From a virus, in IMG/VR virus record IMGVR_UViG_3300050821_007134, positions 1 through 64,000 of that record: 64,000 bases of DNA; one strand, written 5' to 3'. The notes below the pieces were generated by a model, which saw only the letters and a program-made list of their open reading frames with translations, had not been told where the DNA came from and searched no databases. The number at the start of each line of letters is the position of its first letter. Position 1 is the first letter of the stretch. Shown here piece by piece: positions 25,890-37,198 of this stretch. A program made the translations under genes and the position numbers.

Positions 25890-26717
25890 TCATAAGTTAT
25901 GCTGCTCCGCAATAAAAGATTTAATAAATTTAAACAATTCGGCGCCTAGCGCCTTTCTAATAGCCTTCATCTCGTCATCGGTACCCGCAATCTGACCTTC
26001 CTTGATTAAATCGTTGGTATAGTCGGCGCAGATATTCTTAATGGAAGACGGGTACTCTCTTAAGTAGACCTCGTCACGCGACAGGAGCTTCTCCAGGCGC
26101 ATTGGCTGTAAAAGATGTGAAACATCAGGGCCAGCCGGTCTGGGCTCACCCTTGGGGCGATCAGGCTTTTTCCAGGCAGTTTCTTCGGCCTTAAAGACTT
26201 TTTTGAATCTTAAATCGGTGCCAAGCAAATGAACAACGATTCCTTCTGGCGACATGTATCCAGGAACCAAAGCTGAGCCCTTTTCACGCAGTGTGTTAAA
26301 AGCTTCATTGATAGCTTCAGAACTGAAGGGACCTTTATAAAGTAGGGGAACACCGACTACACGATTAGGAAGCGGCTTACCATCGATTCTGGCGATATTG
26401 AACACGGCGAAGACCTTTTCTGTAAGACCTTCACTAGAATTGATGCCAGGGCCTACCCATTCTCCGAACCAAGTACCTTCGCCAAGTTTTTCGATGAGTT
26501 CTGCTTTATTATCTTCAACGAATCGTGCAAAACCAAAATTGTCGTCGTCTACAGTAAGCCAGCGGTTACGGGAACCGGCTTTAATATCATAGGTTACTCT
26601 GTCCCCATCGGAAACTTGATAAATCAAAATTTGGGCATTCGTACCATGAAGTTTTTGGGTAATAGTGACAGCGGCCTTCCCGATTTGCTTTACATCGGGA
26701 AATGACTTAAATTCCAT
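25890..26717 (-). CDS. RNA ligase, Rnl2-like family
   Basis: Motif I TQKLHGTNA, plus GSRNRW, DNFGFA, FGEWVGPGI and PEGIVV. Confidence 0.8.
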   Translation of the reverse strand: MEFKSFPDVKQIGKAAVTITQKLHGTNAQILIYQVSDGDRVTYDIKAGSRNRWLTVDDDNFGFARFVEDNKAELIEKLGEGTWFGEWVGPGINSSEGLTEKVFAVFNIARIDGKPLPNRVVGVPLLYKGPFSSEAINEAFNTLREKGSALVPGYMSPEGIVVHLLGTDLRFKKVFKAEETAWKKPDRPKGEPRPAGPDVSHLLQPMRLEKLLSRDEVYLREYPSSIKNICADYTNDLIKEGQIAGTDDEMKAIRKALGAELFKFIKSFIAEQHNL

Positions 26718-27024
26718 TGGTTTCTCCTTATAAGCTTACGACAACCGGGAAATCAACTGGCTTAGTAGAGCCAGAACGTAAAGCTGTATAGACCACTGGT
26801 AAAATGTCTAAGACCAATCCATCTGGAGTAGAAATTGTAACAATTTGGCTTTGTCCATCAGACCCAGGAGCGCCAATTCTAACTTTTGTTCTCATGGAAT
26901 CGCTAAGTACTTCTTGCTGTTCTGTAGTCATAACGATATGGGTTGGTTGTTTATTATTTGTTTTGATAAACTCTGTAACCAATTCTGACATGAGTTCTTC
27001 AGTAACAATTTTCATATTTTCTCC

Positions 27025-27456
27025 TTAAAAGTTAATGCCTAAACCTAAATCAACTTGGCCGCTGGAAGTTCCACCAGCGCCGCGCAAAACTCGATTATTT
27101 TCTTTAACAAACAATGGACCTGCGATATCTGCTTTAAGTCCAAGTTCAGCTCCGGCCAATCCTGAAACAGATCCGGATGATGATTCAATTCTTGTTCCAA
27201 CTACTGGACCAAAATTGATTGGGCCGAGTTGTAAGCCGCCTGAAAGAAGGGCCGTATTTTGTCGAGAATTTCTGGTTGTCTGTGCTTCCAAAGAAGCGTA
27301 AGTTTCTCGATCACCAACTGAATAAGAAAGTCCGTAGGCTGGTGTCAAATTATCGTTACCGATAAGATGAACTCCTAGAGAATCCGCGTGAGCATTAGTC
27401 ATCGTTCCCAAAACTACGACGAGGACCACTGCTAAAATAAACATCAATTTTTTCAT
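27025..27456 (-). CDS. Small outer-membrane beta-barrel protein
   Basis: Signal peptide ending AHA, amphipathic beta strands and C-terminal LGLGINF beta-signal. Confidence 0.65.
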   Translation of the reverse strand: MKKLMFILAVVLVVVLGTMTNAHADSLGVHLIGNDNLTPAYGLSYSVGDRETYASLEAQTTRNSRQNTALLSGGLQLGPINFGPVVGTRIESSSGSVSGLAGAELGLKADIAGPLFVKENNRVLRGAGGTSSGQVDLGLGINF

Positions 27457-27989
27457 TTTCTTTTACCTTTCAAGTCGGTTGAGGTCTTAGTCTTGTGACA
27501 AGAGTAACAAATGGCCTGATGGTTGTCAAGGCCTAAACTTTGGCCACCTTTATAAATGGGAATTATATGGTCTACTTCAAGCCTGCGTTCTTTGGGGGTC
27601 TTATGTTTCAAATTCTTTACGTGGTGCCAAGAAAACTTATTCCTGTAATCCCAAGGCTCAAAAAATCCACCTCGACTGTTCCATGCTTCAACGATCATGT
27701 CTAAAAGTGGAACGTAATCATATTGACATAGCGCGCATTTAAAGTCTTGACGTTGCAAAAGATAATATAGGCCCTGTTCCTTTTGAGGATAAGACCAGGC
27801 CATGGCCATATCTCCGCACTCGCTCGTGCAATATTTTTGGTTCCCATGATGAAGTCTGCCTTCTCCACACCACGCACAATATCTTAGAAGATCACGAGTA
27901 ATAGCTCGTAAACCGCCCAGATTATAGCTGCGCTTAGTCCAACTCTTATTGAGTTCCTCAACTTTAGGATTGGGCGATTTTTTGAACAT
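27453..27989 (-). CDS. HNH endonuclease
   Basis: CALC...EVDHIIPIYKGG...LDNHQAICYSCHKTKT. Confidence 0.88.
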   Translation of the reverse strand: MFKKSPNPKVEELNKSWTKRSYNLGGLRAITRDLLRYCAWCGEGRLHHGNQKYCTSECGDMAMAWSYPQKEQGLYYLLQRQDFKCALCQYDYVPLLDMIVEAWNSRGGFFEPWDYRNKFSWHHVKNLKHKTPKERRLEVDHIIPIYKGGQSLGLDNHQAICYSCHKTKTSTDLKGKRK

Positions 27990-28312
27990 TACGGAGCTGG
28001 ATTAAATATCGTATTTGCGTTCGCTGTCGAAGGAATAGTATTTTGATTATTAGGATTCTGCCAATCCAAAGTCAGTGACGTGTTATTCGCCAAATATTGA
28101 ATAGTGTATCCTGCTGCCTGGAATGCAGCCGTAATTGTATCCAAGTTAAGTCCTCCGGGGACCGCCACGGTTACTCGATACGCGCCGGTATTTGCAGCTG
28201 TCTGGATAGCCGTATCCAGGCCAGCAATAAATGCCTGTGTTGCAACGCTAGTAGCATTGATTACTGCCGCATCCGATAAGGCTTTTGCATCTGTTGCTAA
28301 TAAATTACTCAT
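27989..28312 (-). CDS. Hypothetical A/T/N-rich protein, possibly virion-associated
   Basis: Amino-acid composition resembles the structural proteins. Confidence 0.45.
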   Translation of the reverse strand: MSNLLATDAKALSDAAVINATSVATQAFIAGLDTAIQTAANTGAYRVTVAVPGGLNLDTITAAFQAAGYTIQYLANNTSLTLDWQNPNNQNTIPSTANANTIFNPAP

Positions 28313-29072
28313 TTTCTAATCTCCCTAATTTTTCTAAAATTTGCTTTGTAGAGTTCAGTCCAATATGGACGGAAACTCTCTTATTTGCTTTTGGATTCAT
28401 TACTTTCATGGAGCCATAGTCTTCTGCGTCAGCTACTATCTTATAGCCCTTCACATCACAGAATGTCTTCAATTGTTCGTAGCTATTAAGTGATACCCCA
28501 AGTTCCCTTTGAATAATTTCGCAATTTCTAGGGTGATGAAGTGTTTCTGGATCAACTTTGTCTAGTATGGCCATTACCATCTTTATGAAGAGACCGTGGG
28601 AAACGACTACGATTGGCCGACCTTCCGGGAAACCTTCTAAAAATCTGACAAATTTATTGGCGCGAATAAGAACATCCTGGAGACTTTCGCCGCCGTCGAA
28701 CTCAATCTCCATGAACTCTGTTAAACCCCAGCCACTATCTCTGAATCTTTCAAATTTAGCCCAATTTTCATCATGACCGACCAAATTCATGTGTTGTTCG
28801 GTGATATCGGGACGCATGATAGGGAATATAGTAAGTTGCATTGACTTGGCCATTTCTTCATATGTCTGTAGGGCTCTTAGCCAAGAAGAAACGAAGACTA
28901 GAGGAATAACATCACTGCCTGAAAGTAATTCTTTTACCTTCAATCCAGCTTCTATAGCCTGTTCATGGCCTAATTTAGTCAACGGGACTGTCCCTTCGTC
29001 CATAGTGCGGAGCAGATGCCAATCGACATTGGCTTCGCTCTGGCCGTGACGAACTAGATAGAGAGTTTTCAC
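28305..29072 (-). CDS. Histidine phosphatase (phosphoglycerate mutase family)
   Basis: LYLVRHGQSEAN, LRALQT, GES, VVVSHG and NCE. Confidence 0.9.
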   Translation of the reverse strand: MKTLYLVRHGQSEANVDWHLLRTMDEGTVPLTKLGHEQAIEAGLKVKELLSGSDVIPLVFVSSWLRALQTYEEMAKSMQLTIFPIMRPDITEQHMNLVGHDENWAKFERFRDSGWGLTEFMEIEFDGGESLQDVLIRANKFVRFLEGFPEGRPIVVVSHGLFIKMVMAILDKVDPETLHHPRNCEIIQRELGVSLNSYEQLKTFCDVKGYKIVADAEDYGSMKVMNPKANKRVSVHIGLNSTKQILEKLGRLENE

Positions 29073-29449
29073 TTAGCAGTTTCTCCGGTCTCTATTTTAT
29101 CCAAACGCGCTTGAGCTAACTGTTCTGTAAATCCTCCGGGATATCGTTTTTCAAGCTTGTCATGATTCATTTGCATGACCTCTTCGAAGGACGATCCGAT
29201 TTCATCTAATAATAGTGCCATGTACCAAAGAATGTCACCGACTTCTTCTTTGACATTTTCTACATCCAAGGCTTTGTTGTAAAGAACTGATTTTTTAACT
29301 GCATCGGTTACTTCACCGACTTCACCGGCCAAACCCATGACTGCGTGCATGAGACGCATTTGTCCATGGTTTGCACGGAGGCGTTCCATCAAATCAACGT
29401 AACCTCGATCTTTAGTTATCGCCCATTTCAGATAATTGTTGTTGTTCAT
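29069..29449 (-). CDS. MazG-like nucleoside triphosphate pyrophosphohydrolase
   Basis: GLAGEVGEV...EEVGDILWY...NHDKLEKRYP. Start moved to the ATG at 29449, which has a GAGGAG RBS. Confidence 0.88.
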   Translation of the reverse strand: MNNNNYLKWAITKDRGYVDLMERLRANHGQMRLMHAVMGLAGEVGEVTDAVKKSVLYNKALDVENVKEEVGDILWYMALLLDEIGSSFEEVMQMNHDKLEKRYPGGFTEQLAQARLDKIETGETAK

Positions 29450-29894
29450 CTTTTCTCCTCTTTTCTTCTTCTGCTTGAAATTTATCAATTGCGCGGATTA
29501 CGCTACTAGAAACGTGCGTCAGATTTCTGTCCGCAAGAAAATAAACAGTAGGAATTTTCATACCAAGATCTTCGTTTGTATATTGCTGAACTTTTTCATA
29601 TTCTAGATCTTGGCCAGTGCGAAGTCCTCGAATTATTGCATACTGATGATTCTCTAGCGCGTGCCCTAAAACATAATTGCCGATTACAATGAACAGGAAT
29701 GTATTCTTTCTCTGTATGATTTCGATGCCGCTTTGAAAATTTGGAATTTCTAATGGTTTGGTTGGTCCTGTTTTTTCTGGATTCGTAAGTTGCAATATGA
29801 CTACCCTATCGAAAACTTTCAAAGCCTTCGCTAGAACATCCGAATGACCATCGTGCCAGGGATTAAAAGAACCTGGGTAAAAACCTATCTTCAT
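29412..29894 (-). CDS. coaD: Phosphopantetheine adenylyltransferase-like protein
   Basis: FYPGSFNPWHDGH, NPEK, IIRGLRTGQDLEYE and HVSSSVIR. Confidence 0.8.
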   Translation of the reverse strand: MKIGFYPGSFNPWHDGHSDVLAKALKVFDRVVILQLTNPEKTGPTKPLEIPNFQSGIEIIQRKNTFLFIVIGNYVLGHALENHQYAIIRGLRTGQDLEYEKVQQYTNEDLGMKIPTVYFLADRNLTHVSSSVIRAIDKFQAEEEKRRKDEQQQLSEMGDN

Positions 29895-30734: not shown

Positions 30735-31124
30735 TCATACTGTTATCCTATATTTGTCAAATTTATCTGAACTGACAGTGAAAGAACTTTTTATTTCTGA
30801 TAAGGTCGTCCAAGGTATCCAGTACCGTTTGTTTGTTTCTGAATCAAAAATAAACATCCAATCGAAATCTCCTTCAACGTAAGCAGATCTTCCTTTGGAC
30901 CTTCCCCTTCTGAAATTTACAGATCTTGCGGTGCCTTTTTTACAAAAATAAGCACTTTTAACTTGTACCTTAAGCCATTTATTCTGGATAGAACAAAATA
31001 TTAAAAAGTCATATGACAAATCATGTTCTATGGGCTCACAAATGTCTGAATAGCCTCTTTGTAAGATCCATTTTAGGAACTCACTTTCTGCTATCAATCC
31101 TTTTTTAGTCGAATTTAAGATCAT
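30735..31124 (-). CDS. PD-(D/E)XK endonuclease (group I intron-associated family)
   Basis: KGLIAE...YDFL...KVQVKS...Y...DFD. Confidence 0.8.
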   Translation of the reverse strand: MILNSTKKGLIAESEFLKWILQRGYSDICEPIEHDLSYDFLIFCSIQNKWLKVQVKSAYFCKKGTARSVNFRRGRSKGRSAYVEGDFDWMFIFDSETNKRYWIPWTTLSEIKSSFTVSSDKFDKYRITV

Positions 31125-31141
31125 GTTCTTCCTTTAAAAAG

Positions 31142-31421
31142 AAAGTTGGGCGGGACGCGACCCCCGCTCTCTCATAAACTGAGATTATCACACTAAAGGT
31201 GTTATGGCCAGTCTCTTAATCATCCACTACCTGCTCGATCAGGTTTGTCGGCGCACTTGCGCAATAACGCCGTACTGCTCTTCGCCATAAAGGCAATTTC
31301 TTCCTTTTAAGCGGGCCATAGGATAACTGCTTTCCTGGCAGCCACTTCAAGTCAATCCGAGAACATAGCGCACCAGGCGGCGATGGCCTGGTAGGACCGG
31401 GTTTCTCTCCCGATTGGACTA
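31142..31421 (-). ncRNA. Large tRNA-like structured RNA 1 (tRNA-mimic core about 31142-31348 plus a 5' multibranch domain)
   Basis: Acceptor-like GAAGT-GG/CC-A-ACTTT, D-like arm CTGC-CAGGAAA-GCAG, T-like arm GCGGG-GGTCGCGT-CCCGC. Insert has many helices (TATGGCC/GGCCATA, ACCTG/CAGGT, TCTCA/TGAGA). No long ORF. Confidence 0.65.
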
Positions 31422-31474
31422 ACCTAAATCAAATAGGGCAATATCACCCTAAATTAGGTAATATGAAGCTTTCA

Positions 31475-31960
31475 TTACCCTATTCTAAAGGGTAAAGAAC
31501 TTTTTCGGGCCATTTCATTCAAGCCCTTGATTCCATGAATTTTTTTAATTAAGTGGTAAGATATAAAACCAAGTTTTTTGGTCGTAGTACAAATCAAAAT
31601 ATTGTTCTTGTACCATTTCAGTGTCGCATAATAAAATAGACCTTTTCTTTCCCAAAGATTTTTCTCCGAATATGGACCAAGATCAACGAGGATTGTGTGT
31701 TTTGGAGAGTCTTCTGTACGCTCATTATCGTACATTTCCCGCGTAGGGATATCTAAACCAATCATGTATTCGACTTTAAGTTTTTGGGGAATATCATCCA
31801 TCACTTGACGATATTGCGCTAAAAGATCAAATTCTTTCCAATCCTTGTGGATCAAGAGAACGTCCAAAACACGATGGGATTTGAAGATCACTCCAATTTT
31901 CGTGTAACCCTTGGATTCCATGGAAGCCAGGAGATTACGGGTCTCTTTTCGACTCATCAT
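31475..31960 (-). CDS. Hypothetical protein
   Basis: 161 aa ORF. Confidence 0.55.
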   Translation of the reverse strand: MMSRKETRNLLASMESKGYTKIGVIFKSHRVLDVLLIHKDWKEFDLLAQYRQVMDDIPQKLKVEYMIGLDIPTREMYDNERTEDSPKHTILVDLGPYSEKNLWERKGLFYYATLKWYKNNILICTTTKKLGFISYHLIKKIHGIKGLNEMARKSSLPFRIG

Positions 31961-36980: not shown

Positions 36981-37000
36981 GTGTCCTCCAAAAAAGTAAA

Positions 37001-37198
37001 TCAAAGGGCCGGACGCTAACCCGGCTCGTTACCAGACAACCTAAGAGATCAGAGCCACGGGTAACCACTTAGACTCCCGGACTTAGGTAGTGCATGTCTC
37101 TTGGCTAATGATCGCTCAGTTCGCCAGCATTACCACGCTGCTCTTTGACGACGGCTGCTTCGCGGGGAGAAGCATATTGCACTAACCCAGGCACCGTC
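37001..37198 (-). ncRNA. tRNA-like structured RNA 2 (core 37001-37148 plus a 5' three-way-junction domain)
   Basis: Acceptor-like TCAAAGAG/CCCTTTGA, D-like arm CAGCG-TGGTAA-TGCTG, T-like arm GCCGG-GTTAGCGT-CCGGC, and a structured insert of about 100 nt (ACCTAAG/CTTAGGT). Confidence 0.65.

What the first reader, a model, noticed from the sequence alone, without database searches (positions are those of the whole stretch)
31142..31421. tRNA-mimic RNA 1: about 280 nt, with the anticodon arm replaced by a large structured insert
Seen: acceptor-, D- and T-like arms with an 8-nt T-loop ending GCGT. A TTATC/GATAA helix opens into about 130 nt of nested hairpins, followed by a variable-arm-like hairpin, and a separate 5' domain (AGTCCAATC/GATTGACT closing ACCAGGC/GCCTGGT) precedes the core. 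There is no anticodon loop, encoded CCA, G3-U70 pair or proteolysis tag. Inference: an unclassified ncRNA that uses a tRNA elbow for processing or stability, or as a decoy for anticodon nucleases or RNA-sensing defences. YrlA Y RNAs are an established precedent for tRNA mimics linked to RNA repair.
Basis: partly seen in the sequence, partly recalled or inferred. Interest (0 to 1): 0.72.

Follow-up and report, generated by a model that had tools for sequence, protein, structure and literature searches.

The report
Phage tRNA-shaped RNA, undescribed family
The flagged stretch is a real non-coding RNA gene: a divergent member of a large family of tRNA-shaped phage RNAs that has a conserved frame and a variable middle, is absent from Rfam, and has no known function.

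Summary
The element is real. It lies on the minus strand of a complete 171-kb phage genome. Its conserved core is 208 nt (31348 to 31141), not 280 nt. It has no Rfam, tRNA or tmRNA match.

A 21-nt pattern from its T-like hairpin found about 16 relatives in IMG/VR. These relatives share three features:
- a closing stem that runs straight on from the T-like stem;
- a D-like hairpin with loop GAAAGCAGA;
- a T-like hairpin with an 8-nt loop, R-N-U-A-G-C-G-N.

In that alignment 17 of 19 base pairs show compensatory changes. Members are 97-234 nt long and have unrelated middle regions. Where a phage carries tRNA genes, the RNA usually sits among or beside them, 1-8 nt away and on the same strand. 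No protein partner recurs.

The 5' domain and the roughly 110-nt insert have no comparative support.

My best reading is a tRNA-like scaffold that host tRNA-processing enzymes cut out and that carries a variable payload. This is inferred, not shown.

Earlier agents of this scan reported what appear to be similar tRNA-shaped phage RNA families on other DNA. I did not test whether they are the same family.

The parts
31141..31348 (-). Core of RNA1, the part homologous to the phage RNA family (208 nt)
   Evidence: Models built without this sequence give full-length matches: R1 25.2 bits, E 1.4e-3 in the window; R2 17.6 bits, E 0.11. The unconstrained MFE of this stretch reproduces the family frame.
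31342..31348 (-). Closing stem P1, 5' strand (GAAGUGG)
   Evidence: It pairs with CCA(A)CUUU at 31141-31149, giving 7 bp with one bulged A. In the family this stem is 7-10 bp in most members, and all 9 modelled pairs covary.
31141..31149 (-). Closing stem P1, 3' strand (CCAACUUUC), directly following the T-like stem
   Evidence: The same segment (CUUUC) could instead pair with the GGAAG ribosome-binding site of the next gene. This alternative is inferred from the sequence and untested.
31335..31339 (-). D-like hairpin A, 5' strand (GCCAG), after a 2-nt linker CU (31340-31341)
   Evidence: Equivalent to GCGUG in the family consensus. It pairs with CUGGC at 31207-31211 in the MFE.
31327..31334 (-). 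Conserved loop motif GAAAGCAG of hairpin A
   Evidence: The family loop is GAAAGCAGA. GGAAAGCAG occurs only twice in the 64-kb window, once exactly here.
31218..31326 (-). 109-nt structured insert specific to RNA1 (nested hairpins closed by AGUUAUCC/GGAUGAUU)
   Evidence: Predicted by MFE only. No orthologue was found, so there is no covariation test.
31207..31217 (-). AAGAGA followed by CUGGC, the 3' strand of hairpin A
   Evidence: RNA2 has the same AAGAGA followed by CAUGC, the complement of its own GCGUG.
31170..31202 (-). Two small hairpins (ACAC-CUUUA-GUGU and UCUCA-GUUUA-UGAGA) in the variable middle region
   Evidence: MFE. The middle region is not conserved across the family.
31150..31167 (-). 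T-like hairpin: 5-bp stem GCGGG/CCCGC with 8-nt loop GGUCGCGU, preceded by GA
   Evidence: The family loop consensus is R-N-U-A-G-C-G-N, and C at loop position 4 is also seen in L072 and L042. All 5 stem pairs covary across the family.
31350..31420 (-). 5' domain: Y-shaped fold closed by AGUCCAAUC/GGAUUGACU, abutting P1
   Evidence: Present in the sequence and in the MFE. It is not a family feature, so it is not established whether it belongs to the same RNA.
37000..37149 (-). RNA2: second, sequence-divergent copy of the same family in this genome
   Evidence: R1 32 bits, E 4e-5; R2 28 bits, E 8e-4. RNA1 and RNA2 are the only two places found in the 171-kb genome.
30735..31124 (-). Downstream gene: PD-(D/E)XK_5 endonuclease-like ORF, whose start codon lies 17 nt after the RNA
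   Evidence: Pfam PF11645, E 2.9e-9. It is not a recurrent neighbour of the family.

Best explanation
RNA1 is a gene for a stable, tRNA-shaped non-coding RNA. It belongs to a large, phage-specific RNA family that is not in Rfam.

The family frame is a roughly 9-bp closing stem stacked directly on a 5-bp T-like stem, a 2-nt linker, and a 5-bp D-like hairpin. The two conserved loops are GAAAGCAGA and R-N-U-A-G-C-G-N.

I infer that this frame mimics the outline of a tRNA closely enough for host tRNA-maturation enzymes to cut the RNA out of longer transcripts and protect it from decay: RNase P at the 5' side, and endo- and exonucleases at the 3' side. On this reading the hypervariable middle is the payload that differs from phage to phage. 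In RNA1 the middle is expanded by a roughly 110-nt insert plus two small hairpins. This would be a natural counterpart of the engineered "tRNA scaffold".

Shown: family membership, the three helices, the conserved loops, the variable middle, and the position inside tRNA arrays.

Inferred: transcription, processing by RNase P, stability, and any role for the payload.
For: 1. A pattern from the T-like hairpin found 21 IMG/VR loci. In 18 of them the two free stem positions are complementary. Sixteen also carry a closing stem of 7-14 bp, and most of these carry the GAAAGCAGA hairpin.
2. The same pattern in bacterial genomes gave chance-level complementarity (24 of 80) and only 4 model hits. The viral hits are therefore not a composition artefact.
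Of 79 fetched loci, 70 are full-length model matches.
4. On that alignment 96.6% of cells are paired, against 70% when shuffled and 32-43% when slid. Seventeen of 19 pairs show changes on both sides. Hairpin A also covaries in the set that was not anchored on it: GCGUG/CACGC, GCGCU/AGCGC, GCACG/CGUGC, GUGUG/CACAC.
5. Model R1, trained without window sequences, finds RNA2 and RNA1 as the only two hits in the window, both full length. The motif GGAAAGCAG sits at the expected offset.
6. Eleven of 88 members lie within 500 nt of a tRNA, 10 of those 11 on the same strand, and several are 1-8 nt away. L055 sits between two tRNAs, and L012 starts 2 nt after a tmRNA 3' end. Of the 14 loci that hold any tRNA, 11 have the RNA beside it.
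7. In Pseudomonas phage Persinger the RNA is unannotated and is followed by an intrinsic terminator.
8. The middle region is 40-180 nt long and unrelated between members. Six of 46 whole phage records hold two copies.
9. Flanking and downstream genes are diverse.
Against:
- RNA1's model scores are marginal. R2 gives E 0.11, because its hairpin A stem differs from the consensus and is interrupted.
- RNA1's closing stem is weak (7 bp with a bulge), and it is absent from the MFE of the longer 301-nt stretch.
- Folding energy is not better than shuffled sequence.
- The conserved loops are unlike tRNA D and T loops, and the tRNA models do not see the family even at E<=5. Recognition by RNase P is therefore an assumption.
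- The closing stem plus the T-like stem gives about 14 bp, against 12 bp in a tRNA.
- Such strong loop conservation suggests a specific partner, which a pure scaffold role does not require.
- G-U and A-C counts in the stems (22 against 18) do not identify the strand. The strand rests on the orientation relative to tRNAs and on the asymmetric loops.
Confidence: 0.5

Rival explanations
1. The conserved frame is itself the functional part. The two invariant loops form a binding site for a conserved host factor, or occasionally a phage factor. Candidates are a tRNA-binding enzyme, a defence nuclease, or the ribosome. The RNA would act as a decoy, inhibitor or recruiter, and the middle region would be only a tolerated spacer.
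For: The loops are far more conserved than a structural scaffold needs. No neighbouring protein recurs, which points to a host partner. The middle region shows no conservation and no antisense match longer than 12 nt in the phage's own genome.
Against: No candidate partner was identified. Some genomes hold two or three copies with different middles, which is easier to explain if the middles matter. Known anticodon nucleases read anticodon loops (established knowledge), and this RNA has none.
Confidence: 0.22
2. It is a cis-acting element of a polycistronic mRNA. The tRNA-like fold would mark a processing site, as in tRNA punctuation or plant mitochondrial t-elements, or would control stability or translation of the gene that starts 17 nt downstream.
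For: RNA1 and RNA2 lie between co-directional genes, with a ribosome-binding site and start codon about 20 nt after P1. About 20 of 88 members have a ribosome-binding site and ORF 16-60 nt downstream. In RNA1 the CUUUC of the P1 3' strand could instead pair with the GGAAG ribosome-binding site (read from the sequence).
Against: Many members sit in tRNA arrays, before a terminator, or far from any ORF. Downstream genes are unrelated. The nearest large ORFs are often on the other strand.
Confidence: 0.15
3. It is a ligand-sensing riboswitch: a three-way junction with interacting loops.
For: It has a closing stem, two hairpins with conserved loops, and a position upstream of ORFs in some loci.
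Against: No gene family is consistently regulated. Members are embedded between tRNAs. Very few junction nucleotides are conserved. There is no consistent expression platform.
Confidence: 0.03
4. It is not an RNA gene. It would instead be part of a group I intron carrying the PD-(D/E)XK homing endonuclease, a DNA-level site (attP, origin), or a chance assembly of hairpins.
For: The downstream ORF belongs to PF11645, which as I recall includes an intron-encoded endonuclease. In phage Persinger the RNA follows the integrase gene. Folding z-scores are not significant.
Against: There is no group I intron hit at E<=10. The flanking ORFs are complete, with their own stop and start codons. More than 80 homologues in unrelated contexts show compensatory changes in all three helices. 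Ten of 11 members near a tRNA share its strand.
Confidence: 0.05

Closest known systems
Phage T4 species 1 and 2 RNAs (RNAC, RNAD), small stable RNAs at the end of the T4 tRNA cluster
   Same: These are phage-encoded, non-tRNA stable RNAs of about 120-140 nt, co-located and co-oriented with tRNA genes. Their function is still unknown (PMC3014915, PMC9697503). RNAC ends in a tRNA-like T arm and acceptor stem. RNAC also contains the 8-mer AGUAGCGU twice, which equals the family's T-like loop consensus.
   Different: Neither covariance model matches T4. RNAC has a canonical GGUUCGAAUCC T arm, which this family lacks. In the RNAC MFE the AGUAGCGU 8-mers lie partly in stems rather than in 8-nt loops. 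T4 has no GAAAGCAGA hairpin.
Canonical tRNA (Rfam RF00005)
   Same: The outline is shared: a terminal stem continuous with a 5-bp stem-loop, a 2-nt linker to a second short hairpin, and a third arm between them. The RNA occupies gene slots in tRNA arrays with tRNA-like spacing.
   Different: ARAGORN and Rfam do not recognise it. There is no anticodon loop. The loops are GAAAGCAGA and RNUAGCGN rather than the GG D-loop and the UUCRANY T-loop. The closing stem is about 9 bp rather than 7, and the T-like loop is 8 nt rather than 7. No CCA is encoded.
YrlA / bacterial Y RNAs (Rfam RF02553) with Ro60 (Rsr)
   Same: These are tRNA-like modules in non-coding RNAs, and some occur in phages.
   Different: There is no RF02553 match and no TROVE/Ro60 gene in the phage. 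As I recall, in YrlA the ends form the Ro-binding stem and the tRNA-like part is capped by a loop, which is the opposite topology.
Engineered tRNA scaffolds for recombinant RNA expression in E. coli (e.g. PMC3753655, abstract only)
   Same: As I recall the method, a tRNA frame with the anticodon arm replaced by an arbitrary RNA is processed and stabilised by the host. That is the mechanism proposed here.
   Different: The scaffold is man-made and uses true tRNA loops. No natural equivalent with this frame has been described in the papers I could search.
tmRNA tRNA-like domain; plant mitochondrial t-elements (PMC1920247, abstract only)
   Same: These are tRNA-like folds with an interrupted or absent anticodon arm, which (as I recall) are substrates for tRNA-processing enzymes. 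t-elements contribute to forming mRNA 5' and 3' ends.
   Different: There is no tag reading frame, no canonical T loop, no CCA and no tmRNA match. t-elements are not a sequence-conserved family with invariant loops.

Membership tests
Unnamed phage tRNA-shaped RNA family (defined here; models R1, R2) | T-like hairpin with a 5-bp stem and an 8-nt loop N-N-U-N-G-C-G-N, followed directly by the 3' strand of the closing stem | tested here: met
   GCGGG-GGUCGCGU-CCCGC at 31150-31167, followed directly by CCAACUUUC. The same loop variant with C at position 4 occurs in L072 and L042.
Unnamed phage tRNA-shaped RNA family (defined here; models R1, R2) | Closing stem of about 7-10 bp joining the two ends | tested here: met
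   GAAGUGG pairs with CCA(A)CUUU, giving 7 bp with one bulge. The stem is in the MFE of the core. It is weak, and it is not formed in the MFE of the 301-nt stretch.
Unnamed phage tRNA-shaped RNA family (defined here; models R1, R2) | 2-nt linker, then a 5-bp hairpin with loop GAAAGCAGA | tested here: inconclusive
   The linker CU and GCCAG-GAAAGCAG are at the right offset. However, the stem closes only after a 109-nt insert (CUGGC at 31207-31211). A local alternative, CUGC/GCAG, exists.
Unnamed phage tRNA-shaped RNA family (defined here; models R1, R2) | Significant full-length match to a covariance model trained on other members | tested here: inconclusive
   R1: 25.2 bits, E 1.4e-3 in the window. 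R2: 17.6 bits, E 0.11. Both matches are full length and rank second in the window, behind RNA2.
tRNA (RF00005) | Cloverleaf with a 7-nt anticodon loop and conserved D and T loop nucleotides, recognised by ARAGORN or the Rfam model | tested here: not met
   ARAGORN finds no genes, even with relaxed settings and introns allowed at this place. There is no RF00005 hit at E<=10, nor on 10 member loci at E<=5.
tmRNA (RF00023) | tRNA-like domain plus a tag reading frame | tested here: not met
   ARAGORN in tmRNA mode and Rfam find nothing.
YrlA / Y RNA (RF02553) | Match to the family model, and a Ro60 (TROVE) partner gene | tested here: not met
   There is no Rfam match. PF05731 is absent from the 171-kb genome, while the control genomes were detected.
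Group I intron (RF00028) with a homing endonuclease | Catalytic core match, and an interrupted host gene | tested here: not met
   There is no RF00028 hit at E<=10. The flanking ORFs are complete.
T4 RNAC-type stable RNA | Sequence and structure homology to T4 rnaC | tested here: not met
   R1 and R2 give no match to the T4 genome. Only an 8-mer is shared, and it sits in a different predicted context.
RNase P substrate (functional class) | Cleavage by RNase P at the 5' end of the closing stem | not testable with these tools
   Inferred only, from the position within tRNA arrays.

The most novel reading that the evidence does not exclude
Phages use this conserved tRNA-like frame as a natural display scaffold. 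The frame hijacks host tRNA processing to make a nuclease-resistant RNA. The freely swappable middle domain would be a fast-evolving effector, such as an aptamer, decoy or guide against host defence or regulatory proteins. Each phage, and each of the two copies in this genome, would then carry a different weapon on the same handle.
Probability: 0.25. Interest if true: 0.85.

Novelty: new variant of a known kind. Interest (0 to 1): 0.62.

Why it matters
If the reading holds, this is one of the larger structured RNA classes of phages still missing from RNA family databases. A narrow pattern alone finds well over a hundred contigs. Carriers include complete genomes with terminal repeats, proviruses, and at least one cultured phage, Pseudomonas phage Persinger.

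The design is a conserved tRNA-shaped frame around a hypervariable middle. It sits in tRNA arrays but is invisible to tRNA finders. That would explain some "empty" gaps in phage tRNA clusters. It would give a natural precedent for tRNA-scaffolded RNA expression. It may also bear on the 50-year-old question of what small stable phage RNAs such as T4 RNAC and RNAD do. Because Persinger infects P. aeruginosa, the question can be tested directly in the laboratory.

Tried and rejected
- **Rfam.** Gathering thresholds on the window, E<=10 on the region, and two scans covering 25 member loci gave nothing for the RNA.
- **ARAGORN.** Normal and relaxed runs with introns allowed gave nothing at this place.
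- **BLAST against GenBank phages.** RNA1 and one member (L085) gave no match.
- **Relatives of this phage.** Searches with the two upstream proteins found none in IMG/VR.
- **Orthologues of RNA1.** A pattern for RNA1-like inserts in IMG/VR gave one chance hit inside a coding region. A pattern for RNA1's T-loop in metagenomes gave 72 hits, 15 with complementary stems (chance level) and none with family features. The insert and the 5' domain therefore cannot be tested by covariation.
- **Group I intron with the PD-(D/E)XK ORF.** Rejected.
- **Ro60 partner.** Absent.
- **Conserved protein neighbour.** None.
- **Antisense targets in the phage's own genome.** Only 12-mers, which is chance level.
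- **Strand assignment from G-U against A-C counts.** Uninformative.
Neither model matches.
- **Loop-to-loop covariation between the two conserved loops.** None seen by inspection.
- **Literature.** Four searches, including literal motif strings, found no description of the family. The library lacks most subscription journals, so this is not proof of novelty.

Full report
**Where it lies.** The window is the first 64 kb of a 171-kb IMG/VR phage record that CheckV rates complete. The flagged stretch reads as an RNA on the minus strand. It lies in a 350-nt gap between two co-directional ORFs. The upstream ORF is 31475-31960, with no family match. The downstream ORF is 30735-31124, a PD-(D/E)XK_5 endonuclease-like protein. 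ARAGORN finds no tRNA or tmRNA in the window or in the whole genome. Rfam 15 gives nothing at gathering thresholds, and nothing for this RNA at E<=10. Folding energy is unremarkable: z = -1.5 for 301 nt and -1.7 for the core. The sequence alone therefore would not establish a structured RNA.

**How the family was found.** I wrote that hairpin as a 21-nt pattern with the variable positions left free. It matched 21 IMG/VR contigs.
- In 18 of these the two free stem positions are Watson-Crick complementary, with C-G, A-U, G-C and U-A all seen.
- Sixteen loci also have a terminal stem of 7-14 bp whose sequence differs completely from locus to locus.
- Most of them have a second hairpin, typically GCGUG-GAAAGCAGA-CACGC, two nucleotides after the 5' strand of that stem.

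As a control I ran the same pattern on bacterial genomes. It hit mostly coding sequence. Only 24 of 80 hits had complementary positions, close to the one in four expected by chance, and only four matched the model. The viral signal is therefore specific.

**Extent and covariation.** A covariance model (R1) built from eight members of the first set recognised 70 of the 79 fetched loci as full-length matches. On that alignment:
- 96.6% of cells form standard pairs, against 70% after shuffling and 32-43% when partners are slid;
- 17 of 19 pairs show changes on both sides;
- all nine pairs of the closing stem and all five pairs of the T-like stem covary.

Two caveats apply. The alignment is fitted to the model. 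In this set the linker and the first two pairs of hairpin A were fixed by the search pattern. Hairpin A does covary in the first set, which was not anchored on it.

The T-like loop, seen without bias in the second set, is R-N-U-A-G-C-G-N, most often AGUAGCGC. The closing stem is most often 9 bp. Members are 97-234 nt long. The middle region of 40-180 nt is unrelated between members.

**Is RNA1 a member?** R1 contains no window sequence. Its only two hits in the window are full-length matches to RNA2 (32 bits, E 4e-5) and to RNA1 at 31348-31141 (25.2 bits, E 1.4e-3). A broader model, R2, built from 49 sequences, scores RNA1 at only 17.6 bits (E 0.11). The reason is that RNA1's hairpin A stem is GCCAG/CUGGC and is interrupted by 109 nt.

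Independent of the models:
- GGAAAGCAG occurs twice in the window, once at exactly the expected offset from the closing stem;
- the unconstrained MFE of the 208-nt core reproduces the family frame;
- RNA1's T-loop variant, with C at position 4, is seen in other members.

I put membership at about 0.9.

**What is not settled in RNA1.**
- The 5' domain (31420-31350) is present and folds well. However, other members show no excess of a helix abutting the closing stem, and members inside tRNA arrays have no room for one.
- The large insert has no orthologue anywhere I could search.
- Two folds compete. In the fold homology favours, the insert sits inside the D-like loop. RNA1 and RNA2 both have AAGAGA followed by the complement of their own hairpin-A 5' strand, which supports this fold.
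The cloverleaf is 3.7 kcal/mol worse for RNA1, but the corresponding fold is the MFE for RNA2.

**Genomic context.**
- Eleven of 88 members lie within 500 nt of a tRNA, 10 of those 11 on the same strand, and several are only 1-8 nt away.
- One member sits between two tRNAs with 4-5-nt spacers. Another starts 2 nt after a tmRNA 3' end, apparently at a prophage boundary.
- Of the 14 loci that hold any tRNA, 11 have the RNA beside it.
- Elsewhere the RNA is intergenic. About 20 of 88 members have a ribosome-binding site and ORF 16-60 nt downstream, as RNA1 and RNA2 do, but those genes are unrelated to each other.
- No Pfam family recurs among 83 flanking ORFs.
- Forty-three of 46 whole phage records carry the RNA. 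Most have one copy and six have two. The records include complete genomes with terminal repeats and proviruses of 38-197 kb.
- One member lies in the cultured Pseudomonas phage Persinger. It is unannotated, begins 10 nt after the integrase stop codon, and is followed by an intrinsic terminator.

**Mechanism.** Structure, conservation and context are shown. The rest is inference. Occupying tRNA slots, on the tRNA strand and at tRNA spacing, argues that the RNA is released by the tRNA-maturation machinery and accumulates as a discrete species. A conserved frame around a hypervariable middle, sometimes in two or three copies per genome, suggests a scaffold that carries a variable payload.

Three points weigh against a pure scaffold:
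- the two loops are unlike tRNA loops;
- the loops are conserved far more strongly than a scaffold needs, which points to a specific, probably host-encoded, partner;
- the coaxial stack is about 14 bp rather than the 12 bp of a tRNA.

I give the scaffold reading 0.5, the reading in which the frame itself is the functional part 0.22, a cis-acting mRNA element 0.15, and the remaining readings small odds.

**Comparison with known RNAs.** The nearest described things are T4 RNAC and RNAD, stable RNAs of unknown function in the T4 tRNA cluster (PMC3014915, PMC9697503). Neither model matches T4. RNAC does contain AGUAGCGU twice, but not in predicted 8-nt loops. Membership tests for tRNA, tmRNA, YrlA and group I introns all fail. 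Four literature searches found no description of the family.

**Earlier notes of this scan.** Several earlier notes (e1-3503651, e1-3265062, e1-1910035, e1-3434375) describe tRNA-shaped phage RNAs with swappable middles that are absent from Rfam. These may be the same or similar families. I could not compare sequences, because look-ups by sequence found nothing. The phage P1 family named in e1-185209 is not this one.

Noticed in passing
window 30735-31124 (-): A PD-(D/E)XK_5 (PF11645) endonuclease-like ORF starts 17 nt after RNA1. The layout recalls free-standing homing endonucleases lodged in phage tRNA clusters, such as SegB in T4. It is not a recurrent neighbour of the RNA family.
   Followed up: partly
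L024 2909-3047 (-) = T4 rnaC, AF158101 70908-71046: T4 species 1 RNA contains the 8-mer AGUAGCGU twice. This equals the consensus of the family's T-like loop. In the RNAC MFE both copies lie partly in stems, so the meaning is unclear.
   Followed up: partly
window 31141-31124 region (-): The CUUUC at the end of RNA1's closing stem could instead pair with the GGAAG ribosome-binding site of the downstream gene, through an 8-nt loop. The two pairings exclude each other, so this could be a switch. It may also be chance in AT-rich sequence.
   Followed up: no
family members, 20 nt after the closing stem (loci L002-L103): The 3' trailers are C-rich and G-poor (C 32%, G 18%). Strings such as ACCCCUCC, ACUCAUUC and CACCUAUUC recur, and some resemble the anti-Shine-Dalgarno end of 16S rRNA.
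   Followed up: partly
L012 13072-13306 (-): The RNA starts 2 nt after the CCA end of a tmRNA gene, at what looks like a prophage boundary. In the lysogen it could be transcribed by read-through from the host ssrA promoter.
   Followed up: no
L002 3757-3792 (-): A match to the Rfam abiF RNA (RF03085, 38.3 bits against a 37-bit cut-off) lies just upstream of the family member in this contig.
   Followed up: no
L026 13282-13480 (-) and L089 5255-5475 (+): These two members, from lower-GC phages, share conserved blocks in the otherwise variable middle, such as GAGAUGCACC and AGAGCCGUGCAUGGCAAG. This suggests subfamilies with a common payload.
   Followed up: no
window 25890-29894 (-): A run of genes lies downstream of RNA1: RNA ligase (PF09414), HNH endonuclease, histidine phosphatase and a cytidylyltransferase-like protein. 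It is a possible RNA repair or nucleotide module, and no link to the RNA was tested.
   Followed up: no
window 31434-31495: Two short hairpins followed by T-rich runs, one on each strand, lie between the upstream ORF's stop codon and RNA1's 5' domain. They may be a weak bidirectional terminator, which would imply that RNA1 has its own promoter. No sigma-70-like promoter was evident.
   Followed up: partly
L049 1231-2035 (+): A sub-threshold group I intron match (39.8 bits against a 50-bit cut-off) lies about 0.9 kb upstream of the family member in that contig.
   Followed up: no
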